Positions 6,635-30,034 of a stretch of DNA of 38,677 nucleotides are shown in pieces (positions within the stretch are counted from its first letter, which is position 1; every line of letters begins with the position of its first letter). The position numbers and the translations under genes are program-made. The stretch lies in contig MHOW01000011.1 in assembly GCA_001820215.1 (NCBI GenBank), forward strand, positions 13,579 through 52,255, read 5' to 3'. Below the pieces are notes generated by a model. That model was not told the origin of the DNA. It did not search any database and was given only the letters and a program-made list of their open reading frames with translations. The DNA is from Candidatus Staskawiczbacteria bacterium RIFCSPLOWO2_01_FULL_33_13. Its GTDB lineage: Bacteria; Patescibacteriota; Minisyncoccia; Minisyncoccales; Staskawiczbacteraceae.

Positions 6635-6819
6635 AATTGTTATGTAATTATTATTTAAATTAAGATTAATATTATGTTCGACCTTTATTCTCGACCTTTT
6701 AAACCTAAAATAATAACATTTTATTATTTTAGGTTATGCAAACGATGACGATTACCAAGGAAAAATCTTACATTAAATCACAAAAATATACATTTATAGT
6801 TATAGCGTAAAAATCGTAA

Positions 6820-6850
6820 AACGAAAACGCCCGAATAGGGCGTTTTCGTT
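6820..6850. terminator. Orphan 13-bp GC-containing hairpin in a gene-free spacer
   Basis: AACGAAAACGCCC-GAATA-GGGCGTTTTCGTT. It is not adjacent to any annotated ORF end. It marks the left edge of the AT-rich cassette. Confidence 0.45.
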
Positions 6851-6991
6851 GTGTTCAAAGACCTGCTCTGGATGTTGCACGAGCTTAGAACTGCTATAAA
6901 TTCAAGGATAGAAAACCCATAGATAAAAAATGTGGATATTTGGTAGTAGAATTATTATTAGATTAAGTTTATAATAACAAAATATATATAT

Positions 6992-7957
6992 ATGATTTAT
7001 AAAAGAAATCCTTATTTAGACAAGATTTTTAAGCATTTAACTATACTTGCTTCCATTGTAAAGAGTAAAAATCAATTGTCTTTAAATGATGATAGTAAAT
7101 CCAGCGAATCTTTTTTTAAAGATTTACTGAATATAATTTTTGGTTATAATTTTATTAATTTAAATAATAAAGAAAAAAATTATGCTGGCATAGATCTAGG
7201 AGATGCTTCTGAAAGAATATGCGTTCAGATCACATCAAGTAATACTTCAAAAAAAATACAGGAAACACTCGATATATCTGATAAACATAAAAGATATGAG
7301 GAATACGACGAAATTACTATCCTAATTATAGGATATAAACAAAAATACAAGAAAATTTTCACTTCGAAATTTAAAAAATGCAATGTTTGGGATATCAGGG
7401 ATGTGTTTCAAAAAATTGATTCATTACCTACGCCTCATATAGAAAAAATTATAGAATATCTCGATAGAGAACTAGACACTGTTATTAAAATAAATCCGAT
7501 TGATTTATTAGATAAGGACATTTCAATTATTATTGATATATTATTTAATTATCTTTCGGAAAAAGGCTTTAAAGGTAAGGTAGGGTCACAACAACAGTAT
7601 AAATTAGTCAGAAGGCAAGACGGATTTATAGATAAAAAAAATAATTTAAACAATGTTAATGAGCTACTTTTTAATAGTGAGATTCGCCCTAGTTTAAAAT
7701 ACGATAAAAAAATCGAGGATTTTCTCAAAAATCCCATTAATGTTAATTTTAAGAAAAAATATTTTGCTATCACTGAAATATTTCAAAAAATATATTCTAA
7801 TAATACTGATGAATTTAACGGTATGGCATCTTTATTCGGCTTCATTTTCGACGAGGTAATAACCTATGAAAATAGAGAAAATCTTGACGATAGCAAGTTA
7901 TTAATATTATTACATAATATGTATTTTAATTGTGATTTAGGTAATAATCCTAAATAA
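6992..7957 (+). CDS. SMEK-domain-like protein; candidate effector component of an ABC-3C-type system
   Basis: The N-terminal ~165 aa follow the SMEK-domain pattern as I remember it: ...SLNDDSKSSESFFKDLLNIIFGYNFINLNNKEKNYAGIDLGDASERICVQITSSNTSKKIQETL...ITILIIGYKQ. The C-terminal ~155 aa are unassignable. The stop lies 1 nt before the next start. Confidence 0.6.
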   Translation: MIYKRNPYLDKIFKHLTILASIVKSKNQLSLNDDSKSSESFFKDLLNIIFGYNFINLNNKEKNYAGIDLGDASERICVQITSSNTSKKIQETLDISDKHKRYEEYDEITILIIGYKQKYKKIFTSKFKKCNVWDIRDVFQKIDSLPTPHIEKIIEYLDRELDTVIKINPIDLLDKDISIIIDILFNYLSEKGFKGKVGSQQQYKLVRRQDGFIDKKNNLNNVNELLFNSEIRPSLKYDKKIEDFLKNPINVNFKKKYFAITEIFQKIYSNNTDEFNGMASLFGFIFDEVITYENRENLDDSKLLILLHNMYFNCDLGNNPK

Positions 7958-7958
7958 A

Positions 7959-8201
7959 ATGTTAAAACCGACAAAATATACAGATCTAAATATTTCCCTG
8001 ATTGCAGTAGTTTCTGAACTTCTTAAGATTTTTAAAGTAAGCAATAGCATTACTTATTCAGAATTACTAAATAAAGTAATACAGAAAAAAGGAATTATTG
8101 CTAAGAATATTTTTTTGCCAGCACTGAGTTTTTTATTTCTTATGGATAAAATTACATACTACGAAAAAAAGGACATAATTGAATATAAAAATGAGAATTA
8201 G
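7959..8201 (+). CDS. 80-aa middle-component-like protein of an ABC-3C-type system
   Basis: Small helical protein (..ISLIAVVSELLKIFK...ITYSELLNKV.....FLPALSFLFLMDKITY), which fits a winged-helix-like shape. Its stop (8199-8201) overlaps the ATG at 8191 of the ATPase gene. Confidence 0.5.
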   Translation: MLKPTKYTDLNISLIAVVSELLKIFKVSNSITYSELLNKVIQKKGIIAKNIFLPALSFLFLMDKITYYEKKDIIEYKNEN

Positions 8202-9957
8202 CAAAATATATTCAAATAATGAATTAATGACACCGATTAGATTTAATCGTGGATTTAATGTGATATATGGAGATATTGAGAACAAGAACGGAGAAAAGAA
8301 TGAACATAATTTAGGGAAATCATCACTAGTTTATCTTATTGATTTTCTTTTATTGAAAAAGGTAACGCAAGAACATTTTTTATCAAGACATAAAGAGCAG
8401 TTTGTCGGCTGGACTTTTTATATAGAAATTGAATTAGGAGAAAATCATTTTTTAACCATCAAAAGATCTGTAAATAATCCAACTCGCATATCTTTCAAGA
8501 AGCATGATACTAAAGATCAAGATTTCTCTTCGTTAGAATTGTGGGACCATGAAGATACTAAATTATACGCAAGGAATGGTATGGATTCACAAGATATATT
8601 AGATAAATATTTAAATTTTAGTATCCTTAAAAATTACTCATATAGACATTTTTTACCATATGCATTGAGGGATCAATATGGCTACGAAGATGTATTTGAA
8701 ATGAGTCAGTTTCAAGGCCTCGACATTAATTGGAAACCATATTTATTTGCTTTATTGGGATATAAAGAGGAGGATGTTATCAACAAATATCTTGTCTATG
8801 ATCAGATTAACAGCTACAGAAAGATGTTGAATATTATTTTGGGGAATAAAAAAATTAATACTAGAGATTCTTATAATCTAAAGGAGGCGATTAATGAAAA
8901 AGAGAACGAAAAGAAAAGCATAATTGAACAAGCCGATAAATTTGATTTTTATTTAAGAGAGAAAAAACTTAGCAAAGAATTAGTTAACGATATAGAAATT
9001 AAAATTAGTGAGTTAAATTCAGAAAGATATAGGCTCGACTATGAAATAAATAAAATAAAAGAGTCGCTAGATAATAATGTTAGTTTTGACATTAAAGAAG
9101 TTGAAGAAATATTTGCGCAAACAGAGATATACTTTCCTGACAAATTAAAAAAGAGCTATCAGGATCTTATAGATTTTAATATCAGTATATCGAATGAAAG
9201 GGCGAGTTATCTAAGAGAAGATCTTGAGGTTAGCCTTGAATATGTAAAAGATATTGAGAGCAAATTAGAAAAATTTAATAAAGAAAAGGAGAGCATGTTA
9301 TCATTTTTGCGGAATACTGATACATTCTCAAAATATAAATCATTTCAAGGGGAGATAATAAAATTAGATGAAGAAATAAATAAATATAAAGCAAAATTGG
9401 ATTCTTTAGGAACCGCAGAGAACTATGAAAAGAAAATAGAGTTATTAAAAATTGATTCCAAGGAACTTGCTTTAAAAATAAAAAAAGTCATCGACGAAGG
9501 AAATGATGTGTTTGATTCAATCAAGAATTTGTTCAAAGATATATTTAAAAAGACCATGGGCTATACGGCATTATTGGTCGTAAAACCTAATAAAGAAGGC
9601 AATCCGCATTTTGAGACAACTACACTTGATAATAAAGATATAGATAAGCTAACCGGACAGGGAGAGGGATACACGGCGACAAAGATTCAGTGCGCCTCTT
9701 TTGTATTAGCTATATTAGCTACATATGCCAAGGAAAGATTTATTAAATTTGCTTATCATGATGGTCTAGTGGAGAGTTGGGGAAATGATCCTAAGATAAA
9801 CTTTTTTGAAGAGATAGCAAATCTATGTAATAGATACGACATTCAATATATAATTAGTGTTATAAAAAGCGATATTCCTGATAAGTTTAAATTCAGAGAC
9901 GATGAAATAATCGCAAGAGTATCACAAGAAAAGCCTCTTTTCGGTTTTAAATTTTAA
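8179..9957 (+). CDS. Coiled-coil ABC/SMC-like ATPase (DUF2326-like); ATPase component of an ABC-3C-type system
   Basis: Degenerate Walker A NLGKSS (aa 44-49, nt 8308-8325). Long K/E-rich coiled coil (aa ~230-450). C-terminal signature-like GQGEGY (aa 493-498) and Walker-B-like FAYHDG (aa 524-529, nt 9748-9765). The track start at 8179 is TTG; the ATG at 8191 (MRISKIYSNN) is the more likely start. Confidence 0.7.
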   Translation: MNIKMRISKIYSNNELMTPIRFNRGFNVIYGDIENKNGEKNEHNLGKSSLVYLIDFLLLKKVTQEHFLSRHKEQFVGWTFYIEIELGENHFLTIKRSVNNPTRISFKKHDTKDQDFSSLELWDHEDTKLYARNGMDSQDILDKYLNFSILKNYSYRHFLPYALRDQYGYEDVFEMSQFQGLDINWKPYLFALLGYKEEDVINKYLVYDQINSYRKMLNIILGNKKINTRDSYNLKEAINEKENEKKSIIEQADKFDFYLREKKLSKELVNDIEIKISELNSERYRLDYEINKIKESLDNNVSFDIKEVEEIFAQTEIYFPDKLKKSYQDLIDFNISISNERASYLREDLEVSLEYVKDIESKLEKFNKEKESMLSFLRNTDTFSKYKSFQGEIIKLDEEINKYKAKLDSLGTAENYEKKIELLKIDSKELALKIKKVIDEGNDVFDSIKNLFKDIFKKTMGYTALLVVKPNKEGNPHFETTTLDNKDIDKLTGQGEGYTATKIQCASFVLAILATYAKERFIKFAYHDGLVESWGNDPKINFFEEIANLCNRYDIQYIISVIKSDIPDKFKFRDDEIIARVSQEKPLFGFKF

Positions 9958-10183: not shown

Positions 10184-10260
10184 TTGATAGTCATAAAAAT
10201 ATGGCTTTTTTGTTTGGTTGTGGCATAATGGATTTACAATTTAATAATTAAGACCTAACC

Positions 10261-10383
10261 CTCCAGATTTTCTGGAGATATGGTCAAAAGTCGTATGAAG
10301 CCCAGAGAACCCATCACGGGGTCGCTTCATACGCCATATCGGGAAACCGGTATGAGTAGCTTCGGCTACTACCTGTGGTGGGC
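10261..10383 (+). ncRNA. Candidate structured leader RNA upstream of 10428-11243 (family unknown)
   Basis: Hairpin at 10261-10277. A 10-bp P1 (10292-10301 with 10324-10333). An 8-bp stem with a GAAA tetraloop (10335-10354). A 5-bp stem with a cUUCGg tetraloop (10356-10369). A possible 8-bp pseudoknot (10310-10317 with 10375-10382). Confidence 0.35.
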
Positions 10384-12879: not shown

Positions 12880-14604
12880 ATGGAAAAACAAAAAAATAAA
12901 ATCAATCACACTCTTTATGCGAGAAAATCAAGCGAGGAAGAAGATAGGCAAGTCCTTTCAATCGATTCTCAGATAAATGAAGACAAGAAAATTGCATCAA
13001 GTAACGGTGTGATTGTGCCGGATGATGCTATACGCAAGGAATCTTTTTCAGCAAAAACAGAATATGCTCGGCCTGTTTTTGAATCAATGATAAAAGATAT
13101 AGAAGCAGGAAGGGTTCAGGGAATTATTGCATGGCATCCAAACAGATTATCGAGAAATGCCATTGATGCAGCTCGGCTGATATCTTTATTTGACAAAGGA
13201 AAGCTTAAGCAGATAATAACGGCGCAGCAGGTATTCAGAAATACTCCCTCTGATAAATTCTTTTTTAATTTGCTTACGAGTCAGGCAAAAATGGAAAACG
13301 ACAATAAAAGTCTTGATGTGAAAAGAGGATTGAGGAGGAAATACGAAATGGGCTATCCCCCGTGTCTATCAAAGGTGGGTTATATGAATGATGAATCGGG
13401 TAGAAAGGGCGATAAAAAATGGAAGAACGACACGGATCGCCAACCCTTGATAAAGAAAGTTTTTGAGGAATTTTTAACAGCAAGATATTCGGTCAGAAAA
13501 ATTAAAGAGTATGCGGATAAAAATGTATGCTTAAGGACAATCCAACGCAATAAAGAGGGCGGAAAACCTCTTAATGAGTCTGCGATGTATAACTTGCTAA
13601 CAGACCCATTTTATGCCGGATTCTTTTACAGAAACGATGAAAATGAGGAAAAGAAAAGATACGAAGCACACGAGTCTCTGAATAGATTGATTACGGAAGG
13701 ACAATACTGGCAAGTCCAGAGAATTTTAGGTAAAAAAGGAAAACCGTGTCCGACCAAGTATCTTGAATCATTTCCCTATAAAAGATTTATGAAGTGTGGA
13801 TCTTGTGGTGGTTCGGTTACGGCGGAACAGAAACATCAACTGATATGTTCGGAATGTAAATTTAAGTTTTCCTATCCCAACAAAACAGCTTGTCCGAAAT
13901 GTAAAGTGAAAATCGAAAAAATGGAAAATCCAAAATACCTATACTATATTTTTTACCATTGTATAAAAGGCAAGGATCCGAATTGCAAAGAGGGTGCGCT
14001 GCAAGAAATAAAAATCGATGAATATGTAGCAGATTATTTTGCAAAAAACATTAAAATTTCAACTGCATTGAAAGAGTGGTGTCTTAAAAACTTTACTGAA
14101 ATTATCGAAAATGAAAAACAAAATGAATTGGAGGTAAGAATTTCCAAGGAGAGAGAATTGGAGCAGAAAAAGAAAGACTACGACAATCTTGTAAAGATGG
14201 GCTCCAGAGGGCTTATAAGTGATGAGGAAGCGTTTTTAAGGCTTGAGTCGAGTGCCTCAGCGGATATTAAAAAGGCTGAGCAATCATTATCTCGAGCTGG
14301 AGGATCTCCAACAGAGATGATAGATGAGGCAAAGAAAATCTTTAATTTTGCCGTAGGAGTGGCAGAAATTTTCAGAAATGGAGTGTTTAAAGATAAAGAT
14401 GAGGCTCTCACAGAAATTTGTTCGAACCTAACTTTAAAAGGCAAAAAAGTGGAAATTTACGAACAAAACTCATACCTTGCTTTAAAAAAGTGCATCGTGG
14501 AGTCAAAACTGAAAAATAGCAACTTCGAACCTGCGATTTACGGAGAGAATAATGAAAAAACAGAGTCTTTTGACTCTGTTCGTTCAACTTGGCTCCCCGG
14601 GTAG
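12880..14604 (+). CDS. Large serine recombinase (integrase type)
   Basis: Resolvase-type N-terminus with the catalytic-Ser context YARKSSEEEDRQVLSIDSQ, plus AWHPNRLSRN. Recombinase domain. Zn-ribbon Cys clusters (CGSCGG...CSEC...CPKC). C-terminal coiled coil. AGGAG lies 13 nt upstream of the ATG. The last 15 nt overlap the tRNA-Asn 3' end. Confidence 0.9.
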   Translation: MEKQKNKINHTLYARKSSEEEDRQVLSIDSQINEDKKIASSNGVIVPDDAIRKESFSAKTEYARPVFESMIKDIEAGRVQGIIAWHPNRLSRNAIDAARLISLFDKGKLKQIITAQQVFRNTPSDKFFFNLLTSQAKMENDNKSLDVKRGLRRKYEMGYPPCLSKVGYMNDESGRKGDKKWKNDTDRQPLIKKVFEEFLTARYSVRKIKEYADKNVCLRTIQRNKEGGKPLNESAMYNLLTDPFYAGFFYRNDENEEKKRYEAHESLNRLITEGQYWQVQRILGKKGKPCPTKYLESFPYKRFMKCGSCGGSVTAEQKHQLICSECKFKFSYPNKTACPKCKVKIEKMENPKYLYYIFYHCIKGKDPNCKEGALQEIKIDEYVADYFAKNIKISTALKEWCLKNFTEIIENEKQNELEVRISKERELEQKKKDYDNLVKMGSRGLISDEEAFLRLESSASADIKKAEQSLSRAGGSPTEMIDEAKKIFNFAVGVAEIFRNGVFKDKDEALTEICSNLTLKGKKVEIYEQNSYLALKKCIVESKLKNSNFEPAIYGENNEKTESFDSVRSTWLPG

Positions 14605-14664
14605 GATTCGAACCTACGACCCATTCCTTAACAGGGAATCGCTCTACCGCTGAGCTACCGGGGA
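14590..14664 (-). tRNA. tRNA-Asn (anticodon GUU), CCA encoded
   Basis: Folded by hand: acceptor TCCCCGG/CCGGGGA, D arm GCTC-AGCGGTA-GAGC, anticodon arm ATTCC-CTGTTAA-GGAAT, T arm GTAGG-TTCGAAT-CCTAC, discriminator G, then CCA. Confidence 0.92.
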
Positions 14665-14906
14665 ATATATTTTTTAATAAATTGTCTACCTTGAAAACTC
14701 TTTAACTGTTTTTCTCGCTTCAAAGATGCGGCTCTATTTTCTGTTTCTTCAGAATATATTAATACCCACTCACCGTCGAACCTTGAAGTATAAGACTTTG
14801 AGAATCCCTTTTCATTATGTAATCTCAGCCGCTCTTTAAGGTTTATTGTTTGTCCTATATAAATTTTATTATGTTTCTTGTTAAAAATTGAATATACAAA
14901 ATACAT
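14655..14906 (-). CDS. Small GIY-YIG (URI) nuclease family protein, 83 aa
   Basis: MYFVYSIFNKKHNKIYIGQTINLKERLRLHN...REKQLK carries the GIY/YIG, Arg and Glu motifs. The track ORF (to 14978, GTG start) has a 24-aa extension encoded by a tRNA-like fragment, so ATG 14906 is preferred. The stop TAG lies inside tRNA-Asn nt 1-10. Confidence 0.85.
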   Translation of the reverse strand: MYFVYSIFNKKHNKIYIGQTINLKERLRLHNEKGFSKSYTSRFDGEWVLIYSEETENRAASLKREKQLKSFQGRQFIKKYIPR

Positions 14907-14916
14907 AATGTAAATT

Positions 14917-14969
14917 GCTCTACCTCCGCCATCCGCCAACTGGCGGAGGCGGAGAGCTACCGGGGAATA
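14917..14969 (-). pseudogene. Duplicated 5' fragment of tRNA-Asn (acceptor 5' strand plus D arm) with a 29-nt hairpin in place of the D-loop AGC
   Basis: GAGCTACCGGGGAATA at 14954-14969 is identical to 14652-14667. GCTCTACC at 14917-14924 is identical to 14641-14648. Between them lies TCCGCCATCCGCCAACTGGCGGAGGCGGA (14925-14953), a 13-bp stem with one bulge. Confidence 0.65.
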
Positions 14970-15102
14970 CTTAACCACATAATATTATTATTTAAGGTTA
15001 TTTGCAAGAGTGATTTTTAATTTCAAGATTCTTTTTTGTGGTATTATTAAAAATAAGTAATTTTTATTTTAATAAAAAAATTAAATAACATTTTTAAATC
15101 CC

Positions 15103-22324: not shown

Positions 22325-25300
22325 ATGGGTATGGCTTATAAATCATTCAAAAAAACAATTAAGGCACTACAAAAAACAGTAGTGTTGTTTTTAGTTTTTG
22401 TATTTTTTATAACTCCCTTGGCTCCAGTGTTTGCTGAGGTTTTAGATAGTACTCCTGCTTTTGAAACTACAGAAGCTTCAACCGAAATTTTGGTTTCATC
22501 AGACATTTTTCCAACAGTTGACCCGGTGCCTTCGGATACTTCGTCTGATGTTGCGGTTTTTTCAGATGCTTCTAGTCCAAGTCCCGTTGATTCAACTATT
22601 CCTGGCGACAAAACCGACCCAACCAGTACTTCTTACAATAAAAATTCTACATCTTCGTCCATGGGTGCTAGCACAACTAGTTCGTCGTCTTCATCTGAAG
22701 TTTCAGATTCATTTAGTACAATAAAACAGTCTATTCCAGAACCTGATCCCGCAACCGGCGCTTTGATATATAGCTATCCAATTACAGTACCCCTTGGGCG
22801 CAATGGTATGCAGCCCGATTTAAAATTACACTACAATAGTCAAAGTGCCGCTCAGGACGGTATTTTTGGTTATGGTTTTGAGGCTAATATTCCTAAAATA
22901 GAAAGAATAAATAAACATGGCGTCAATAAGCTATATGATTATAAAGATTTTAGATCTTCTTTATCAGGAGAACTTGTAAATATATCTTCCGAAGATTATG
23001 TGGCAAAAATAGAAAATGGTTCATTTTTAAAATACAAGCTAATTGATGGCGTATGGATTATTACCGACAAGAAAGGCACTTTATATAAGTTTGGACGCTT
23101 TGATTCTTCAAAAATTTATGATTTTTCAAACACAGATAAAATTTATGCGTGGTATTTAGATGAGGTTGTAGATACCAACGGCAACTCAATAAAATATTTT
23201 TATACAAAAAATGTTGCTGATAATTTTTTATATCCCGATAAGATAGTCTATACTGGTAGTGGGGCAGAGGCAGGAATTTTTTCAGTTGAATTTAAAAAAG
23301 AATTTAGACCAGATTCTTATACAAAAAATAGTACTGGTTTTACTCAAAAAATTAATGAGCGCATTAAGTCCATAGAAACATATGTCTTTGGTACATTAAG
23401 TAGAAAATATGATTTGATTTACAAAATAGGGGATAATGGCAAGCGCTCTATGCTTGAAAAAATTATTGAAAGCGGAACGGATGGGTTTGGTGTTACTACT
23501 ACATTACCATCTTTTAATTTTGCTTATACTAAAGGAGATGTTGGTTTAGTAAATACGCCTTCTATAAATTATCCAATGGTTGTTGAAGATGGAGCATCTG
23601 TGCCATTTTCATTTGCTGACAACGCAGTTAAGATTATAGACATTAATGGTGATGGATTAAAAGATATTGTAAAATCCAGCATCATTATAAAAGATGGGGT
23701 TGATCGGCCAGTCTTTTGGGTTTTAAAAAATAATGGGTCAGGATGGGTGGTGGACAATTCTTACCTTCAGCCGATGTACTCTTTTGTTAATAGTTTGGGA
23801 AATACCGTTAACGAATATTTTACTTTTTCAAACTCAATTGATGTTGGCGATTGGAATGGAGATGGTAAAGATGACTTAATTAAATTTTGGGTTGAGATTA
23901 ATGGCGCAAAAGATAAACAACACGCTGTAGTATTGCTAAATACTGGTACAGCCTGGGTGCAAAATACTAATATAACAACAGATATACCCTACACTCAAGC
24001 CGGAAGTCCAATATATGTATACTCAGGTTCCTATGGTTCACAAAATCATTTTATTGATTTAAATGGCGATGGATTGATTGACTATATTAATGCTTCAAAT
24101 TATCAACAAAACGGCATAAATTATCCAAGTTTTGCAGTTTTATATAACGATGGCGAAGATTTAAAGTGGGATGCAACAATGCCTCAACCATATGCAAAGC
24201 CAAATCTTGCTTCAGCCAGTGAGCCACTTGCATTAAGTAATAGTACAAAAATACTAGATATTAATGGAGATGGCCTTGTTGATTTTATTTTTGCAAATAA
24301 TTACCAAATTAATGGCATTGATAATCCATCTTTTTGGGTTTTGATAAATAATGGGCATGGGTGGGATCAGGATTTAACTATTACTCAGGCGCAATATATC
24401 TCTCTTGATGTGAATGATAATGCAAAAACAAATTATTTTACCAGCACCCAGGGTTGGCGTGTGGTTGATATTAATGAAGATAGTCTGCCAGATTTTATTA
24501 TGTTTGGAACAATTGATACTGGCGCAAATACCTATAAAAAAAGGAAAACGGTTTTAGTAAACACTGGCAAGGGATGGATTCAAGATGACAGCTTGATTAC
24601 TATTGGAGATTATACTTATGTAGATTCCAATGGCACGCAAACCAATTATCCTAACTCTGGCGCAGGCGATATTGTATTACTTGATATTAACGGTGACGGA
24701 CTCTTTGATATTACTCGTCCGGGTTCTTACTATCAATCAGGAGTTTTTCGGGCAAGCAACTGGACACTTTTAAATAATGGCAAAATTGCCAACACTTTGG
24801 CAAAAATTGAACTGCCCCAGGGCGGCTCTTATGATTTTTCTTATAAAATGACAAGCGCCTATAAAGATGCTTCGGGAAACTTACTGAATAATAATTTACC
24901 ATCAGCACATAATACAATTAAAAAGATAATTCAAAATGATAGCAATGGCGCCGCCTCCACAAAAGATTATGAGTATTCTGGAGGGCGCTTTTTTTACGAA
25001 AACTCTTTTAATAAGCGTTTTGCAGGATTTGAAAAAATCACCAAAATAAATCCTGTAGGAGAAAAATTTATAACATATTATCATCAGGGAAACACCACAA
25101 ATTCAACTCAGGGAGAATTTGACGACCAAGAATCTAAAATAGGAATGATTTATAGGTCTGAATTATACGATAACTCTAATAATATTTACTCTAAAAATAT
25201 ACAAAAATGGGATAGTGCTGACTTAGGCGGTGGTGTAAAATTTGTGAAATTGGCTCAAACGGTAAATTTTATACATGATGGCGAGGCTACTCATCGCGAT

Positions 25301-28300
25301 ACCACAGAAAGCTACACTTATGATACTTATGGCAACACCACTCAAAAAATTGAATATGGCGAAGTTTTGGGAAATGATGATGGCGCATTTTTAGATATTG
25401 GAAGTGATAAATTTATAACTAATTATTCTTATGCTTCCAATGGGGAATATATTGTTGGTTTTCCTTCACAGGTAACAGTAAAAAATCAAAGTGGAGAAAA
25501 AGTAAAAGAAAGTAAATTTTACTATGACCTAGAGGCCATTGGTAGTGTAACAAAAGGAAATCTTACAAAACAAGAAGATTGGAAAAATGGCGTCGTCTAT
25601 ATTAACAACCAAAAAACCTACAACAACTATGGTTTGGTGACCGCGTCAATTGACCCAAGTGGAAATGCAACGCAATATGGTTACAATTCTTATAATCTTT
25701 ATCTAGCAATATTAACCAATGCTTTAAATCAGATTACACAATATATTTATGATTACTCTTCGGGACAAGTAACACAAAAGACAGATATTAACGAAAGAGT
25801 ATTTCAACACACCTACGATGGCGTGGGTAGGTTAATAGAAGAAAAACAGCCAGATTTGGCCGTGCCATCAATCTTAGTTACTAAGGCCACATACGCTTAT
25901 ACAGATACTCCAAATGCAGTAAGTGTTAAAAAATCAATTTACCTGGATGCATCAAATTCTGTTGACAGCTATATCTATTTTGATGGGCTTGCTAGAAAAA
26001 TTCAAGAACGCCAAGAGGCTGAAGGAATAAATTTTACAGTAAAAGATTATGTGTATAATAATGTTGGACAACTTGCAAAAGAATCTTTACCTTATTTTTC
26101 AACTGGTTTAAATAAAACTTCACCAACGAATGATTCTACACTTTACATAAATTATAGTTACGATGCTATGGGTCGCATGGTTACTTTAACCAATGCAGTT
26201 GGCAATACTTCAAATACTTACAACAATTGGAAATTTACCACAACGGATGCAAATGGAAAATCTAAAGATTTATACAAAGATGCGTATGGTAATGTACTAC
26301 AAGTTGATGAGCATAATGCTGGCAACACTTATAGTACTTTTTATAGCTATAATTATTTGGGAAATGTAATAAAAATTACTGATGCGTTAAATAATGTGCG
26401 CACCTTTACTTACAATGGGCTTGGCCAAAGATTAATTGCACAAGACCTTCATGCGCCAACAGATACCTCGTTTGGTATTTGGAATTATACTTATGACGAT
26501 TCGGGAAATATAATCCAAGTTGTAAATCCTAATAATCAAATAATTAATTACACCCATGATGATTTACATAGGCAGTTAACCGAGGATTATTTGGGACAGG
26601 AAGGAATAGAAGTAACCAATTCTTACGATAATGGCATTGATGGCAAGGGTCGGCTTACAGGCGTTGTATCTTCAAGTGTAATTCAGAATAATACTTACAA
26701 CGCTTTGGGATTTTTAAAAACTGAATCAAAAATTATAGATTCTGTAACCTACCCAACAACCTATGATTATGACAGGCAGGGGAGTCAAACTATGATTACA
26801 AATCCCGATAATTCACAAGTAAAAAATATTTACAATAGCGCAGGATTGCTTGATAAAACTCAAAGAAAGGAAAGTTCTGATGCAAACTTTATTGATGTAG
26901 TTTCAAATTTTGACTATTCGCCAATAGGACAAATTACCATCCAACAAAACGCAAACGGAACTGTCACAACAAACATCTACGACGCCACCAAACTTTATAG
27001 ATTAATTAATAAAAAAACTACAACTTCGGCTACTCCACCAGCACCACCTTCGCCTCCCGGACCGGTTTCATATTCATCATCTGATATTAATAGTTTTGTA
27101 GATATTAAAATTTCACAAAATCGTCTTAGCGATTTAATAACAAATATTAAAAATGGTGTTTTGGGTTTTGCTTCTAATTTTACCTCCGCTGTAAAATCAT
27201 TCTTTACTGTTCCTGTTGCTATGGCTGTCAGTCCTCCCATCATCTCCACATTCATAAGAGACCCTACCAGCATATTATACGACCAATCATCCAGATTATC
27301 ATGGACTCTTTCTGGCGGAGCTCCCACCAGTTTATCAATTGATAAATCTGTAGGCTCGGTGCTTGGCACTTCAGCCGTAAGAGTTTATCACATTCTTGAT
27401 ACTACTACTTACACTTTAACCGCTAAAAACTCTGCAGGTACTGTCACTAAAAAAGTCACCGTTACCGTTAATCACAAGCCTCCTATTATTTCAACTTTCA
27501 AGGCAGACACCACCACCATAAATTATGGAGACTCTGTCAGATTATCCTGGACACTTTCAGGCGAAGCTCCAACCAGTTTGTCAATTGATAACGGTGTAGG
27601 TTCGGTTTTAGGTATCTCGGCAATACGAGTCTACAATGTCACAAAAACCACAACCTACATTTTAACAGCCAAAAATTCGTACGGCACCGTCACCAAATCC
27701 GTGAAAGTCACTGTTAATCCCCAGGCTCCAGTGATTAATACATTTAGCGCAAGTCCGATTGCAATTACTTCGGGGCAAAGCGTGACATTGGCCTGGACAC
27801 TTTCTGGCGGGGTCCCCACCACACTTTCAATCAACAACAGTGTCGGCTCGGTTTTAGGAATGTCATCAAAATCCGTTTCACCAACGATAACCACCACCTA
27901 TATTATGACAGCAAAAAATATTTCGGGGACTTCATACAACGCTGTGTTGGTCACCGTCAATCCTGCCGCGCCAATTATTTCTACATTTGTAGCAAGTCCC
28001 ACTACTATTAATGCTGGTCAAGCTGCTATTTTATCATGGACGCTTTCTGGCGGAGCTCCCACCAGCTTGTCAATTAATAATTCGGTAGGGTCAGTGCTTG
28101 GTATTTCGTCCTTAAGGATTTATAATATTCTTAATACAACCACTTACACTCTTACTGCAAGCAACACTACTGGTTTTGTAACTAAGTCGGTCACCGTTAT
28201 TGTAACTTTGCCCCAAGCCGAAGCTCCAACCATCAGCCCAAATGGAGGAACATTTACTAGCGCCCAAACCATCACCCTTGAATCGGCCACCACCGGCGCC

Positions 28301-30034
28301 GATATTTATTATGCGACAGATGATTCAACTCCAACGGCCGCTTCAACAAAATATACTACTCCATTTACGCTTGAGCAAACTGCCACCGTAAAAGCTATTG
28401 CCCAAAAATCTGGTTACACCGATTCAACAATTTCATCGGCAATTTTTACTATTAATATTCCACCAACTTCAATCTGGTCTGGCCAAATTATTCAAGATGT
28501 AAGTTATACCTACGACGCCGTTGGTAATATTACAAAAATTGTAGATAATTCAAATACCAACACCAAAAAAGTTTCAACCTACACCTACGACGATTTGTAT
28601 CGAGTTACCAACGCCACTGTTATCGGCAGTGATGATTCAACTAAAAACTATCAGGAAAGTTATGTGTACGATGCCATCGGAAACATTGTAACCAAAACAG
28701 AAACTATTGGCGCTGGCACCCCAACAACCTCCGTTTATTCATACTCAAATGTTGACTACGCCAATCCGCATGCGGTTACCAGTATTGGTGCTACTGCTTT
28801 TTCGTATGACAACAATGGAAATATGTTGAGTTCAACTGGTGGATTTACCAATGTTTGGGATTACAGTAATCGCTTAACTTCTGCAATCAAGGGAACAATT
28901 ACAAATACTTACGGGTATGACGCCGGAGGTCAGAGGATAAAAGTTGCAAGTCCGACAGTTACCACAATCTACCCCACTAAGTTTTATAACACTGACGGAA
29001 CGAATATCGTAAAACACATTTTTGCCGGCTCTCAAGACTTATCCACCGTGCAAGACACCGGAGCAAGTGCTAAAATATATACAAATCACAGTGATTTATT
29101 GAATTCATCGAGTGTGATGACCGATTCCGCCGGCGTCCCCGCTGAAGTGATGGACTATATGCCATTTGGCGCGATCAGGATAGATGAAAAAGTAGGTTCG
29201 TTTAACGAGCAAAGAAAATACATCGGACAAGAATTTGATGCCGAAACAGGATTAAATTATTTAAACGCGAGGTATTACAACAGCGCACTTGGTAGATTTA
29301 TTTCCCAAGACCCGATGTTTTGGAATTTATCAAATGAATTACTCACTGATCCGCAGCAACAAAATTCATATTCATACGCCAGAAATAATCCGATAGTGGG
29401 AAGTGACCCCACTGGGCTACTGGTTGAATTAATGTCCAGACAGGTTTTTGATGCTAAAGGTCGCGATGTCGGAATACACACATTCTTTAAAGTAACGCCA
29501 GATTATCCAAATGATATTCGTATAGATGGGCTCGCAAGCGGAACAAAAGAGTTTACATTCGGCGCATATCCGAGCAGCTCTGATGGGTGGACTAACAAAT
29601 TATCAAAACAAATTGGCACTACAGAGAATAGCCAAGATAAACAATGGGCATTTGAGGGCGGTAAAATAATAAATCAAACCATTGTAAGCCTACCAGAAGG
29701 GGTTAAAAACGATACTGACTTTATTAATAATATGGGAAAAGCATATAATAATATGGATTTATCGGAAATGAATTATTTTTGGCATGGAAATGTTTCTGGA
29801 TTATATGATGGCAATTCCAATAATTTTACCTATACATTAGGTGTAAAAAGTGGGGCAAAGAGTCAAATGGATTCCTTTGATCCGGGCCCAGGTATAGCTA
29901 AAATAGTCGGTGAATATGGTTATGGCAAGACTTTACCCACCACAAGTATATATCACACAGCGAGGGACATGGCATATTATATGGGGAATAAAATTGGTCA
30001 ATTCGTTTCTTCATTAAAAGCCAAAAAGAAATAA
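22325..30034 (+). CDS. Giant secreted SpvB / FG-GAP / RHS-YD repeat polymorphic toxin (TcB-TcC-fusion-like), 2569 aa
   Basis: Signal peptide (VVLFLVFVFFITPLAPVFA) and an S/T/P linker. SpvB-like YSYPITVPLGRNGMQPDLKLHYNS (aa ~149-172). FG-GAP/VCBS-like DINGDGLxD repeats (aa ~439-795). Many YD repeats (YTYDTYGNTTQ, YIYDYSSGQVTQKTD, HTYDGVGRLIEE). RHS core YIGQEFDAETGLNYLNARYYNSALGRFISQDP. NPIVGSDPTGL motif (DPTGL is aa 2361-2365, nt 29405-29419). Confidence 0.95.
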   Translation: MGMAYKSFKKTIKALQKTVVLFLVFVFFITPLAPVFAEVLDSTPAFETTEASTEILVSSDIFPTVDPVPSDTSSDVAVFSDASSPSPVDSTIPGDKTDPTSTSYNKNSTSSSMGASTTSSSSSSEVSDSFSTIKQSIPEPDPATGALIYSYPITVPLGRNGMQPDLKLHYNSQSAAQDGIFGYGFEANIPKIERINKHGVNKLYDYKDFRSSLSGELVNISSEDYVAKIENGSFLKYKLIDGVWIITDKKGTLYKFGRFDSSKIYDFSNTDKIYAWYLDEVVDTNGNSIKYFYTKNVADNFLYPDKIVYTGSGAEAGIFSVEFKKEFRPDSYTKNSTGFTQKINERIKSIETYVFGTLSRKYDLIYKIGDNGKRSMLEKIIESGTDGFGVTTTLPSFNFAYTKGDVGLVNTPSINYPMVVEDGASVPFSFADNAVKIIDINGDGLKDIVKSSIIIKDGVDRPVFWVLKNNGSGWVVDNSYLQPMYSFVNSLGNTVNEYFTFSNSIDVGDWNGDGKDDLIKFWVEINGAKDKQHAVVLLNTGTAWVQNTNITTDIPYTQAGSPIYVYSGSYGSQNHFIDLNGDGLIDYINASNYQQNGINYPSFAVLYNDGEDLKWDATMPQPYAKPNLASASEPLALSNSTKILDINGDGLVDFIFANNYQINGIDNPSFWVLINNGHGWDQDLTITQAQYISLDVNDNAKTNYFTSTQGWRVVDINEDSLPDFIMFGTIDTGANTYKKRKTVLVNTGKGWIQDDSLITIGDYTYVDSNGTQTNYPNSGAGDIVLLDINGDGLFDITRPGSYYQSGVFRASNWTLLNNGKIANTLAKIELPQGGSYDFSYKMTSAYKDASGNLLNNNLPSAHNTIKKIIQNDSNGAASTKDYEYSGGRFFYENSFNKRFAGFEKITKINPVGEKFITYYHQGNTTNSTQGEFDDQESKIGMIYRSELYDNSNNIYSKNIQKWDSADLGGGVKFVKLAQTVNFIHDGEATHRDTTESYTYDTYGNTTQKIEYGEVLGNDDGAFLDIGSDKFITNYSYASNGEYIVGFPSQVTVKNQSGEKVKESKFYYDLEAIGSVTKGNLTKQEDWKNGVVYINNQKTYNNYGLVTASIDPSGNATQYGYNSYNLYLAILTNALNQITQYIYDYSSGQVTQKTDINERVFQHTYDGVGRLIEEKQPDLAVPSILVTKATYAYTDTPNAVSVKKSIYLDASNSVDSYIYFDGLARKIQERQEAEGINFTVKDYVYNNVGQLAKESLPYFSTGLNKTSPTNDSTLYINYSYDAMGRMVTLTNAVGNTSNTYNNWKFTTTDANGKSKDLYKDAYGNVLQVDEHNAGNTYSTFYSYNYLGNVIKITDALNNVRTFTYNGLGQRLIAQDLHAPTDTSFGIWNYTYDDSGNIIQVVNPNNQIINYTHDDLHRQLTEDYLGQEGIEVTNSYDNGIDGKGRLTGVVSSSVIQNNTYNALGFLKTESKIIDSVTYPTTYDYDRQGSQTMITNPDNSQVKNIYNSAGLLDKTQRKESSDANFIDVVSNFDYSPIGQITIQQNANGTVTTNIYDATKLYRLINKKTTTSATPPAPPSPPGPVSYSSSDINSFVDIKISQNRLSDLITNIKNGVLGFASNFTSAVKSFFTVPVAMAVSPPIISTFIRDPTSILYDQSSRLSWTLSGGAPTSLSIDKSVGSVLGTSAVRVYHILDTTTYTLTAKNSAGTVTKKVTVTVNHKPPIISTFKADTTTINYGDSVRLSWTLSGEAPTSLSIDNGVGSVLGISAIRVYNVTKTTTYILTAKNSYGTVTKSVKVTVNPQAPVINTFSASPIAITSGQSVTLAWTLSGGVPTTLSINNSVGSVLGMSSKSVSPTITTTYIMTAKNISGTSYNAVLVTVNPAAPIISTFVASPTTINAGQAAILSWTLSGGAPTSLSINNSVGSVLGISSLRIYNILNTTTYTLTASNTTGFVTKSVTVIVTLPQAEAPTISPNGGTFTSAQTITLESATTGADIYYATDDSTPTAASTKYTTPFTLEQTATVKAIAQKSGYTDSTISSAIFTINIPPTSIWSGQIIQDVSYTYDAVGNITKIVDNSNTNTKKVSTYTYDDLYRVTNATVIGSDDSTKNYQESYVYDAIGNIVTKTETIGAGTPTTSVYSYSNVDYANPHAVTSIGATAFSYDNNGNMLSSTGGFTNVWDYSNRLTSAIKGTITNTYGYDAGGQRIKVASPTVTTIYPTKFYNTDGTNIVKHIFAGSQDLSTVQDTGASAKIYTNHSDLLNSSSVMTDSAGVPAEVMDYMPFGAIRIDEKVGSFNEQRKYIGQEFDAETGLNYLNARYYNSALGRFISQDPMFWNLSNELLTDPQQQNSYSYARNNPIVGSDPTGLLVELMSRQVFDAKGRDVGIHTFFKVTPDYPNDIRIDGLASGTKEFTFGAYPSSSDGWTNKLSKQIGTTENSQDKQWAFEGGKIINQTIVSLPEGVKNDTDFINNMGKAYNNMDLSEMNYFWHGNVSGLYDGNSNNFTYTLGVKSGAKSQMDSFDPGPGIAKIVGEYGYGKTLPTTSIYHTARDMAYYMGNKIGQFVSSLKAKKK
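27233..28213 (+). repeat. Four tandem ~82-aa (246-nt) Ig-like repeats inside the RHS ORF
   Basis: Units start at nt 27233, 27479, 27725 and 27968. Consensus: (P/A)PIISTF.A.PTTI..G....LSWTLSGGAPTSLSI(D/N)N.VGSVLG.S....Y....TTTY.LTAKN..GTVTK.V.VTVN. Confidence 0.85.
29420..30031 (+). other. C-terminal variable toxin domain of the RHS protein (204 aa), family unassigned
   Basis: It begins right after DPTGL. It contains GIHTFF (His at nt 29477-29479), KEFTFGAYP (from nt 29546) and GNSNNFTYTL (Ser at nt 29816-29818). It has no Cys. Confidence 0.6.

What the first reader, a model, noticed from the sequence alone, without database searches (positions are those of the whole stretch)
6992..9957. Three translationally coupled genes resembling an ABC-three-component (ABC-3C) conflict system with an unassignable effector half
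Seen in the sequence:
- The three co-oriented ORFs are packed with a 1-nt gap (7957/7959) and an 11-nt ATG/stop overlap (8191-8201).
- The block is visibly more AT-rich than the genes on either side (not computed).
- It sits in a gene-free spacer beside iteron-like repeats and, further on, a serine recombinase next to a tRNA.

Gene 1 has an N-terminal region matching my memory of the SMEK domain (ESFF..LLN..FGY.F.NLN.......GIDLGD....ICVQITS). Gene 2 is an 80-aa helical protein of the size and shape of ABC-3C middle components. Gene 3 is a 590-aa ATPase with degenerate Walker A NLGKSS, a ~220-aa coiled-coil insert, and C-terminal GQGEGY...FAYHDG, which is DUF2326/SMC-like.

ABC-3C systems were predicted computationally as anti-invader systems, and to my knowledge they remain essentially uncharacterised experimentally. 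The C-terminal ~155 aa of gene 1 (nt ~7490-7954) shows no catalytic motif I can recognise, so the output of the system is unknown. Finding such a cassette in a CPR-like reduced genome would be notable.
Basis: partly seen in the sequence, partly recalled or inferred. Interest (0 to 1): 0.8.

Follow-up and report, generated by a model that had tools for sequence, protein, structure and literature searches.

The report
Short Lamassu defence cassette, SMEK nuclease
The three tightly packed genes are a Lamassu (ABC-3C) anti-phage/anti-plasmid defence system of an already catalogued subtype. Its output is a restriction-endonuclease-like SMEK nuclease, so the finding is real but ordinary apart from its host, an ultra-small CPR bacterium.

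Summary
Three co-oriented, translationally coupled genes (6992-7957, 7959-8201, 8191-9957) form the most AT-rich block of the window (27% vs 34.5% GC).

The ABC-3C reading is right. All three proteins pass Pfam's curated cut-offs:
- Gene 1: SMEK_N plus CTD12 of ABC-3C.
- Gene 2: middle component MC8.
- Gene 3: DUF2326/YydD. Its AlphaFold model is closest to B. subtilis YydD, then to solved Lamassu LmuB chains, ahead of SMC and Rad50.

The triad keeps order and adjacency in all 19 sequence-distinct related loci examined.

Two parts of the interpretation are wrong or outdated:
- The "unassignable effector half" is the adaptor, CTD12. It stays constant while the N-terminal domain is swapped (Mrr_cat-like or protease-like in other genomes). 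The effector is the N-terminal SMEK domain, homologous (E 2.6e-24) to the solved "Mrr domain" of the Kordia short-Argonaute partner.
- ABC-3C is Lamassu/DdmABC. It has been tested against phages and plasmids and solved by cryo-EM in 2025, and SMEK is already listed among short-Lamassu effectors.

Likely mechanism, by homology only: an LmuB dimer plus LmuC holds monomeric LmuA. DNA-end sensing and ATP turnover release it, and CTD-driven oligomerisation switches on the nuclease.

Verdict: new member of a known kind; low interest.

The parts
6992..7957 (+). lmuA-like effector gene (321 aa). The N-terminal SMEK / Mrr-like restriction-endonuclease-fold domain covers about aa 5-165, and the helical CTD12 adaptor covers about aa 170-321.
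   Evidence: Pfam SMEK_N 5.1e-36 (aa 12-142) and CTD12 1.6e-8 (aa 214-317). NCBIfam SMEK_N 2.2e-27. PADLOC Aga_REase 2.8e-32. A profile matches PDB 26bh, the Kordia 'Mrr domain', at 2.6e-24 over aa 8-164. The AF2 model has pLDDT 85, with an alpha/beta N-domain and a bundle of about 7 helices in the C-terminal half. D68 and Q79 are invariant and T81, K88 and K116 are nearly invariant. The CTD motifs KNxxN, FLxxPIN and HxMYFNCDxG are invariant or nearly so.
7959..8201 (+). lmuC-like middle component (80 aa, MC8).
   Evidence: Pfam MC8 1.6e-11 (44.6 bits, cut-off 25), with weaker MC6 and MC7 hits. It lies between effector and ATPase in all 26 loci. K6, Y33, L59, Y67 and D72 are invariant in 14 sequences down to 33% identity.
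8191..9957 (+). lmuB-like SMC/Rad50-type ABC ATPase (588 aa from ATG 8191; DUF2326/YydD family). The head is split by a coiled coil of about 260 aa, with no CxxC zinc hook.
   Evidence: Pfam DUF2326 1.7e-14. PADLOC PDC-M68B 1e-40 and LmuB 5.7e-12, both near full length. AF2 pLDDT 86, helices 194-456. Foldseek: YydD model 9a6c_A 5.3e-22 (TM 0.61), then Lamassu LmuB chains 9uxh_F, 9hqu_A, 9hqx and 9ux7_A at 1e-12 to 7e-10, ahead of SMC, Rad50 and JetC. H39, G42, K43 (Walker A), R160, Q162 (Q-loop), G493 and D524 (deviant Walker B, FAYHDG) are invariant. There is no CxxC.
6635..6991 (.). Upstream non-coding spacer, the presumed promoter region of the cassette. It contains a perfect 15-nt inverted repeat (6702-6735), a GC-rich hairpin (about 6819-6853) and one two-copy 9-mer (6678/6691).
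   Evidence: Read directly from the sequence. Repeat scans. Promoter-like hexamers at 6968-6996 are a consensus match only. Function was not tested.

Best explanation
The block is a three-gene ('type II', short-LmuB) Lamassu / ABC-3C defence system of the SMEK-effector subtype, carried as an accessory cassette in a CPR (Patescibacteria) genome.

Shown here:
- Gene 3 is an SMC/Rad50-like ABC ATPase of the YydD/DUF2326-LmuB kind. It has an intact Walker A lysine (K43), a Q-loop and a deviant Walker B.
- Gene 2 is the small middle component (MC8).
- Gene 1 is a two-domain protein. Its N-terminal half is a SMEK/Mrr-type restriction-endonuclease-fold domain. Its C-terminal half is the ABC-3C CTD12 helical domain.
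- Across genomes, CTD12, MC8 and the ATPase stay together while the N-terminal domain is exchanged.

Inferred by homology with the solved Vibrio, Salmonella and Bacillus Lamassu complexes:
- An LmuB dimer binds one LmuC and, through CTD12, one monomeric LmuA, and keeps the nuclease inactive.
- DNA ends or replication intermediates of a phage or plasmid are sensed by the LmuB head, probably with LmuC.
- ATP turnover releases LmuA.
- The freed CTDs oligomerise and pair the SMEK domains into an active site.
- Indiscriminate DNA cleavage then aborts the infection or removes the plasmid.
For: Family assignments are all above Pfam gathering cut-offs: SMEK_N 124 bits, CTD12 35.6, MC8 44.6, DUF2326 54.2. 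PADLOC LmuB and PDC-M68B models cover gene 3 nearly end to end.

The gene 3 model is closest to YydD and then to four solved Lamassu LmuB chains, ahead of SMC, Rad50 and JetC.

The gene order effector-MC-ATPase, with abutting or overlapping ends, is kept in all 26 loci examined (19 distinct from the window) down to 31-35% effector identity. These include Bacteroidota, Gammaproteobacteria and Firmicutes.

Modularity: in Arsenicibacter and Yersinia the same CTD12/MC8/DUF2326 set has a weak Mrr_cat-like N-terminus, and in Paenibacillus a weak trypsin-like one.

The N-terminal half is homologous to the solved Kordia 'Mrr domain' of a short-pAgo partner (1.5e-11 for the single sequence, 2.6e-24 for the profile). 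A paper reports, citing earlier work, that this SMEK-APAZ/pAgo complex cleaves target DNA (PMC10810196).

SMEK_N sits at the N-terminus of NACHT/STAND-TPR, AAA-TPR and TPR-PIN proteins, which is the usual effector position.

Literature: ABC-3C is Lamassu. LmuA consists of an effector domain, a linker and a CTD of 5-6 helices. Short LmuB is about 600 aa with a divergent Walker B. SMEK is listed as a short-Lamassu effector. The sequestration, DNA-end sensing and tetramerisation mechanism is described (bioRxiv 10.1101/2025.04.02.646746; bioRxiv 10.1101/2025.06.23.660979; PMC10586767).

Functional constraint: the Gracilibacteria copy is recoded with 31 in-frame TGA codons. In its ATPase gene, eight of the 18 align to Gly in the window protein, including Walker A G42, G493 and G525.
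Against: No experiment exists for a SMEK-type Lamassu, nor for any Lamassu in CPR.

Gene 3 has no sequence-level match to any solved LmuB, even with a profile. Foldseek TM-scores to LmuB are only 0.34-0.41, partly because of the flexible coiled coil.

The gene 1 model finds no significant structural neighbour (best E 0.09; a restriction enzyme at probability 0.51). One paper states that BcLmuA carries a CTD12, but neither the CTD12 profile nor the Yersinia CTD12 protein finds any solved LmuA chain. Equivalence of this CTD with solved ones is therefore unproven.

The SMEK motif is D68...Q79-x-T81, without the lysine of the canonical (D/E/Q)xK. A catalytic lysine would have to come from K88 or K116.

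LmuC here is only 80 aa. Papers report DNA-contacting residues as far along Vibrio LmuC as K149, so that protein must be considerably longer, and DNA contacts by this LmuC are uncertain.

PADLOC has no LmuA or LmuC model that hits genes 1 or 2.
Confidence: 0.88

Rival explanations
1. It has the Lamassu architecture, but the SMEK domain is not a DNA-degrading effector. It could be a degenerate endonuclease fold used for nucleic-acid binding or sensing, or it could cut RNA. The output would then differ from collateral DNA cleavage.
For: The canonical lysine of the (D/E/Q)xK triad is replaced by a nearly invariant Thr (T81), and E39 is Gln in part of the family. Foldseek gives no significant nuclease neighbour for the model. 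The CTD carries strikingly invariant polar motifs (KNxxN, PIN, HxMYFNCDxG) whose role is unknown.
Against: D68 and Q79 are invariant, and K88 and K116 are nearly invariant, as expected for a relocated-lysine PD-(D/E)xK variant. The homologous Kordia SMEK-APAZ/pAgo complex is reported to cleave DNA (PMC10810196). SMEK_N occupies the effector position in STAND and TPR proteins. In sister systems the domain at the same position is Mrr_cat-like or protease-like, that is, enzymatic.
Confidence: 0.08
2. It is a housekeeping SMC/SbcC/RecN-type DNA repair or chromosome maintenance module, and the two small upstream genes are unrelated.
For: The gene 3 model also resembles SMC, Rad50 and RecN heads. 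Lamassu is proposed to descend from SbcCD.
Against: There are no Pfam or NCBIfam hits to SMC_N, RecN, RecF or SbcC models. The best structural matches are YydD and LmuB. The gene is always linked to CTD12 and MC8 genes. Distribution is patchy: in relatives whose 244-aa neighbour is 77% and 66% identical, no cassette gene is found on the contigs, 4.7-5.5 kb on the side where the cassette would lie. The block has atypically low GC.
Confidence: 0.02
3. The cassette is a decaying or silent horizontally acquired remnant with no current function in this host.
For: It has the lowest GC in the window, and no clear Shine-Dalgarno sequence or strong promoter was identified.
Against: All three ORFs are intact. 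The three proteins are 100% identical in the four assemblies examined (L006-L009), and the gene 1 protein was seen on 20 contigs. All family-invariant motif residues are retained. Relatives in code-25 Gracilibacteria are fully recoded, which shows long-term expression in CPR hosts.
Confidence: 0.02

Closest known systems
Short 'type II' Lamassu / DdmABC (Vibrio cholerae LmuACB; Salmonella enterica LmuACB), also called ABC-3C systems (Krishnan et al. 2020)
   Same: The three-gene order is effector, small middle component, SMC-like ATPase. LmuB is about 590-600 aa with Walker A Lys, a deviant Walker B and no zinc hook. LmuA is an N-terminal effector plus a helical CTD. The genes are tightly coupled. 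LmuB chains are the closest solved structures after the YydD model.
   Different: The effector is SMEK instead of Cap4. The CTD is CTD12, not CTD7. The middle component is MC8 (80 aa), not MC3, which must be considerably longer since papers cite residues up to K149 in Vibrio LmuC. There is no detectable sequence similarity to the solved chains. The host is a CPR bacterium.
Bacillus subtilis YydB-YydC-YydD (DUF2326 family; PDB 9a6c, integrative YydD-YydB model)
   Same: YydD is the best structural match to gene 3 (E 5.3e-22, TM 0.61) and belongs to the same Pfam family, DUF2326. JGI names the homologues 'YydD (DUF2326 family)'.
   Different: The partner effector is different: YydB rather than a SMEK-CTD12 protein. 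I did not examine the yyd locus, so its composition is from memory only.
SMEK-APAZ / 'Mrr-APAZ' partner of the Kordia jejudonensis short Argonaute (PDB 26bh)
   Same: The N-terminal half of gene 1 is homologous over about 160 residues (2.6e-24), including the E..F...LN, IDLxD and QITS..S.KI motifs. PADLOC labels the same domain Aga_REase.
   Different: There the nuclease domain is fused to APAZ and controlled by a guide-loaded Argonaute. Here it is fused to CTD12 and controlled by an SMC-like ATPase.
Type I Lamassu (Bacillus cellulasensis LmuAB)
   Same: A paper states that the CTD of BcLmuA belongs to CTD12. BcLmuB (9ux7_A) is among the structural matches to gene 3.
   Different: It is a two-gene system without LmuC and with a Cap4 effector. 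I could not reproduce a CTD12 match to any solved LmuA chain.

Membership tests
Lamassu / ABC-3C | SMC/Rad50-like ABC ATPase (LmuB) whose head is split by a coiled coil | tested here: met
   AF2 model: head strands and helices at both ends, continuous helices 194-456. Foldseek matches to YydD, LmuB, SMC and Rad50. PADLOC LmuB 5.7e-12 over residues 1-530. Pfam DUF2326.
Lamassu / ABC-3C | Conserved Walker A lysine, with a Walker B that is often deviant in short LmuB | tested here: met
   H39, G42 and K43 are invariant. D524 is invariant, followed by Gly rather than Glu (FAYHDG), in 26 sequences. Deviant Walker B motifs are described for BcLmuB and VcLmuB.
Lamassu / ABC-3C | Small middle-component gene (LmuC/MC) between effector and ATPase | tested here: met
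   Pfam MC8 1.6e-11, above cut-off. The position is conserved in all 26 loci.
Lamassu / ABC-3C | Effector protein made of a variable N-terminal effector domain plus a family-specific C-terminal docking domain (CTD) | tested here: met
   SMEK_N plus CTD12. CTD12 is kept while the N-terminus is swapped for Mrr_cat-like or trypsin-like domains (weak hits) in L010-L012. The helical CTD in the model matches the 5-6-helix bundle described for short LmuA.
Lamassu / ABC-3C | LmuA1-LmuB2-LmuC1 complex, DNA-end sensing, ATP-regulated release and oligomerisation of LmuA | not testable with these tools
   No complex prediction or biochemistry is available here. This is inferred.
Lamassu / ABC-3C | Protection against phages or plasmids | not testable with these tools
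   This needs expression in a surrogate host. No SMEK-type Lamassu experiment was found in the papers searched.
SMEK / Mrr-like PD-(D/E)xK nuclease domain | Sequence membership in SMEK_N | tested here: met
   Pfam 5.1e-36, NCBIfam 2.2e-27, PDB 26bh 2.6e-24.
SMEK / Mrr-like PD-(D/E)xK nuclease domain | Catalytic D...(D/E/Q)xK constellation on the central sheet | tested here: inconclusive
   D68 (strand 69-71) and Q79 (strand 76-81) are invariant. The third position is T81, not Lys. K88 and K116 are nearly invariant candidates. Model coordinates could not be inspected, so spatial proximity was not checked.
SMEK / Mrr-like PD-(D/E)xK nuclease domain | Structural match to restriction-endonuclease folds | tested here: inconclusive
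   A full-length two-domain query gave only weak hits: EcoO109I at probability 0.51, plus BbvCI, BamHI and Can2, all with E above 0.5.
Housekeeping SMC / RecN / RecF / SbcC | Match to the corresponding curated family models and conserved housekeeping context | tested here: not met
   No such Pfam or NCBIfam hits. The gene is always linked to CTD12 and MC8 genes. No cassette gene is found on the contigs of the relatives L027 and L028.

The most novel reading that the evidence does not exclude
The SMEK-CTD12 / MC8 / DUF2326 lineage could be a CPR-enriched, minimal Lamassu, with an 80-aa LmuC, no zinc hook, and a nuclease with a relocated lysine. It appears to have lived in Patescibacteria long enough to be fully recoded in code-25 Gracilibacteria. 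If so, abortive-infection-type immunity would operate in ultra-small episymbionts. Killing the symbiont cell there has different population consequences, and the trigger or target could involve host-derived or naturally taken-up DNA rather than phage replication alone.
Probability: 0.12. Interest if true: 0.5.

Novelty: new member of a known kind. Interest (0 to 1): 0.2.

Why it matters
The main value is as a correct annotation. The cassette is a Lamassu system whose output is a SMEK-type nuclease, not an unknown effector.

Modest additional value:
- Lamassu-type, SMC-based defence is present and apparently maintained in several CPR lineages with very small genomes.
- It provides compact natural variants (80-aa LmuC, 588-aa LmuB, 321-aa LmuA) that could serve for structural or mechanistic comparison with the Cap4-type systems solved so far.
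- No SMEK-type Lamassu appears to have been tested experimentally in the literature I could search.

Tried and rejected
1. Sequence searches of gene 3 against all PDB chains, as a single sequence and as a 26-sequence profile, gave only coiled-coil noise. The link to LmuB rests on PADLOC and on structure.
2. Foldseek of the full-length gene 1 model against PDB gave nothing significant.
3. I tried to tie CTD12 to a solved LmuA chain, using profile A2 and the strongly CTD12-positive Yersinia protein. There was no hit, so the published statement that BcLmuA carries CTD12 was not reproduced.
4. Empty-site test. A scan of species-representative genomes with the neighbouring pyruvate kinase found nothing. 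A metagenome scan with the 244-aa upstream neighbour found relatives at 77% and 66% identity that lack the cassette. However, synteny is rearranged there (OmdA on the other side, different neighbours), so insertion boundaries could not be defined.
5. I searched for terminal or att-like repeats around the cassette and for a link to the serine recombinase and tRNA-Asn. There was none beyond chance-level AT-rich matches.
6. The 'iterons' are three two-copy short repeats only, so that reading is rejected.
7. A viral-contig scan with the effector profile found no relative, so there is no sign that the cassette is phage-borne.
8. The Krishnan et al. 2020 paper could not be retrieved. Its content is cited only through other papers.
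Full report
**Observation**

The ORF scan shows gene 1 at 6992-7957 (321 aa) and gene 2 at 7959-8201 (80 aa). A long ORF ends at 9957; its longest form starts at TTG 8179, but its ATG at 8191 gives a 588-aa protein. That N-terminus (MRISKIYSNN) lines up with the MKLSKIYSN start of 25 homologues.

The cassette has 27.4% GC against 34.5% for the rest of the window. Genes 1 and 2, at about 25%, are the lowest of the 31 ORFs measured.

Both flanks lack convincing ORFs. The downstream flank holds a full-length LOOT RNA (10252-10370, 84 bits). The 'iteron-like' repeats are three two-copy 8-9-mers and carry no weight. The serine recombinase (12880-14604) and tRNA-Asn (14590-14664) are real. Three unrelated genes separate them from the cassette, and I found no repeat that ties them to it.

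**What the three proteins are**

- Gene 1: SMEK_N (5.1e-36, aa 12-142) and CTD12 of the ABC-three-component systems (1.6e-8, aa 214-317).
- Gene 2: ABC-3C middle component MC8 (1.6e-11).
- Gene 3: DUF2326 (1.7e-14).

NCBIfam confirms SMEK_N. In PADLOC, gene 3 matches the candidate model PDC-M68B (1e-40) and LmuB (5.7e-12) almost end to end, and the N-terminus of gene 1 matches an Argonaute-associated 'REase' model (2.8e-32). No housekeeping SMC, RecN or RecF model matches.

*Gene 3.* An AlphaFold model built on 26 homologues (pLDDT 86) shows an ABC head split by about 260 residues of coiled coil. Its best structural neighbour is the B. subtilis YydD-YydB integrative model (9a6c_A, E 5.3e-22, TM 0.61). 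Solved Lamassu LmuB chains follow: 9uxh_F, 9hqu_A, 9hqx and 9ux7_A, at E 1.5e-12 to 6.8e-10. Only then come SMC, Smc5/6, Rad50/SbcC and JetC.

Invariant residues in the family are:
- H39, G42 and K43 (Walker A).
- R160 and Q162 (Q-loop).
- G493 (signature-like region).
- D524 in FAYHDG, a Walker B without the usual Glu.

There is no CxxC zinc hook.

At sequence level, neither the protein nor its profile finds any solved LmuB. The relationship to the characterised systems is therefore remote.

*Gene 1.* The model (pLDDT 85) has an alpha/beta N-terminal domain (to about residue 165) and an all-helical C-terminal half.

The N-terminal half is homologous to the solved 'Mrr domain' of the Kordia jejudonensis Mrr-APAZ short-Argonaute partner, PDB 26bh. 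The match is 1.5e-11 with the single sequence and 2.6e-24 with a family profile over residues 8-164. The literature calls this same domain SMEK. [quoted passage not shown]

Within the family, D68 and Q79 are invariant, and T81, K88 and K116 are nearly so. The motif is thus D...QxT rather than D...(D/E/Q)xK, and a lysine would have to come from the next helix or strand. I could not check this in three dimensions.

Foldseek with the whole two-domain model found nothing significant.

**Which half is the effector**

The evidence points the other way.

- The C-terminal half is CTD12. It aligns, with invariant KNxxN, FLxxPxN and MYxxCDxG motifs, to proteins from Arsenicibacter, Yersinia and Paenibacillus. 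Those proteins sit in the same X-CTD12 / MC8 / DUF2326 operon.
- Their N-terminal domains are different. Two have a weak Mrr_cat-like match (4.4e-4 and 0.08) with a GPDGGRD...QCKH motif, and one has a weak trypsin-like match.
- Conversely, a profile search of 1.84 billion cluster representatives found 4,040 relatives. In the top 150, only about 30 cover both halves. Most of the others share only the SMEK domain.
- In the ten I scanned, SMEK sits at the N-terminus of NACHT/STAND-TPR, AAA_16-TPR, TPR-PIN and pentapeptide-repeat proteins, among others. That is the usual effector slot of conflict-system proteins.

This matches what is published for Lamassu. LmuA is an N-terminal effector, a linker and a CTD of 5-6 helices that docks on LmuB and LmuC and later drives tetramerisation.

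**Conservation of the triad**

All 26 related loci fetched carry the three genes in the same order, abutting or overlapping. Nineteen are distinct from the window's own species. Effector identity goes down to 31-35%.

A genome scan keyed on the HNMYFNC motif returned 14 species representatives:
- Nine are CPR: Falkowbacteria, Saccharibacteria (two), Minisyncoccia, 'Patescibacteria group', Paceibacterota, Peribacteria, Parcubacteria and Gracilibacteria.
- The others are Marinamargulisbacteria, Caenarcaniphilales, Labilibaculum, and MAGs labelled Alteromonas and Rhizobium.

Because the search started from a CPR sequence, the apparent enrichment is not a measured one.

The window itself is identical to contigs of GCA_000989665.1 and GCA_001820135.1.

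In the Gracilibacteria locus the three genes contain 10, 3 and 18 in-frame TGA codons and read through only with code 25. In the ATPase, eight of these codons align to Gly in the window protein. They include Walker A G42, G493 and G525. That is good evidence for long-term, expressed residence in CPR lineages.

Two relatives have a 244-aa upstream neighbour that is 77% and 66% identical. Neither shows any cassette gene on its contig, but synteny is rearranged there. This shows accessory status without giving insertion boundaries. No relative was found on viral contigs.

**Mechanism**

Shown here: the parts list, the domain boundaries, the conserved ATPase and nuclease-motif residues, the modular architecture and the operon conservation.

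Inferred from the Vibrio, Salmonella and Bacillus work:
- An LmuB dimer with one LmuC holds one monomeric LmuA through its CTD.
- The head, together with LmuC, recognises DNA ends or phage replication intermediates.
- ATP turnover, slow because of the deviant Walker B, promotes release of LmuA.
- The CTDs tetramerise and pair two nuclease domains into an active site.
- Non-specific DNA cleavage then aborts infection or eliminates plasmids.

I put about 0.9 on the family assignment and about 0.6 on each mechanistic step carrying over unchanged. The reasons for caution are the different CTD and MC families (CTD12/MC8 against CTD7/MC3), the very small LmuC and the atypical catalytic motif.

**Comparison and novelty**

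ABC-3C, Lamassu types I and II, and DdmABC are one superfamily (PMC10586767). It has phage and plasmid phenotypes and several 2025 cryo-EM structures. The statement that these systems are uncharacterised is therefore out of date.

Haudiquet et al. list SMEK, with HNH and lipase, as effector domains specific to short Lamassu. NCBI already names the CPR homologues 'ABC-three component system protein', 'SMEK domain-containing protein' and 'DUF2326 domain-containing protein'.

This locus is therefore a new member of a known, catalogued subtype.

What remains mildly interesting is the host range and compactness. Only two held papers mention Lamassu and Patescibacteria together, and neither names either term in its title or abstract. 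I found no experiment on a SMEK-type Lamassu in any held paper.

Interest score: 0.2.

Noticed in passing
window 10252-10370 (+): A full-length LOOT RNA (Rfam RF03000, 84.4 bits against a gathering score of 46.4) lies in the spacer just downstream of the cassette. A terminator-like hairpin with a T-run overlaps its last base (10369-10381), 47 nt upstream of a PG_binding_1 gene (10428). Its relation to either neighbour is unknown.
   Followed up: partly
window 14652-14667 and 14954-14969: An exact 16-nt direct repeat (GAGCTACCGGGGAATA) brackets the small GIY-YIG ORF (14655-14978, minus strand). The repeat includes the 5' end of tRNA-Asn (14590-14664, minus strand). This looks like a partial tRNA duplication left by insertion of a GIY-YIG mobile gene. 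In the related assembly L008 this ORF is shorter (83 aa).
   Followed up: no
window 12880-14604 (+) and 14590-14664 (-): The 3' end of a large serine recombinase (Resolvase plus Recombinase domains, 574 aa) overlaps the convergently oriented tRNA-Asn gene by 15 nt. No matching att-like repeat was found elsewhere in the window, so an integrated element could not be delimited.
   Followed up: partly
L025 6001-8940 (Candidatus Gracilibacteria MAG): The homologous three-gene cassette contains 10, 3 and 18 in-frame TGA codons and is readable only with genetic code 25. In the ATPase, eight of these codons align to Gly in the window protein, including the Walker A glycine.
   Followed up: yes
window 6702-6735 and about 6819-6853: The spacer upstream of the cassette has a perfect 15-nt inverted repeat with a 4-nt loop (AACCTAAAATAATAA/TTATTATTTTAGGTT). 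It also has a GC-rich hairpin (AAAACGAAAACGCCC-GAATA-GGGCGTTTTCGTT) that looks like a bidirectional terminator. No ORF or Rfam family accounts for a transcript ending there.
   Followed up: no
window 22325-30034 (+): There is a single 2,569-aa ORF, a giant protein, with locally raised GC (about 41-44% around 27000-29000). It was not examined.
   Followed up: no
P0181, P0189, P0214, P0225, P0229, P0284 (representative proteins): SMEK_N is a widely reused N-terminal module. It is fused to NACHT/STAND plus TPR, AAA_16 plus TPR, TPR plus a GreAB-C-associated PIN domain, and pentapeptide repeats. It also heads many proteins of about 320-340 aa and about 900 aa whose remaining part has no Pfam match.
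   Followed up: partly
L012 1361-5797 (Paenibacillus sp. HWE-109): Here the CTD12/MC8/DUF2326 cassette has an effector with a weak trypsin-like N-terminus. A Lactamase_B-fold gene directly precedes it, overlapping it by 11 nt. [quoted passage not shown]
   Followed up: no
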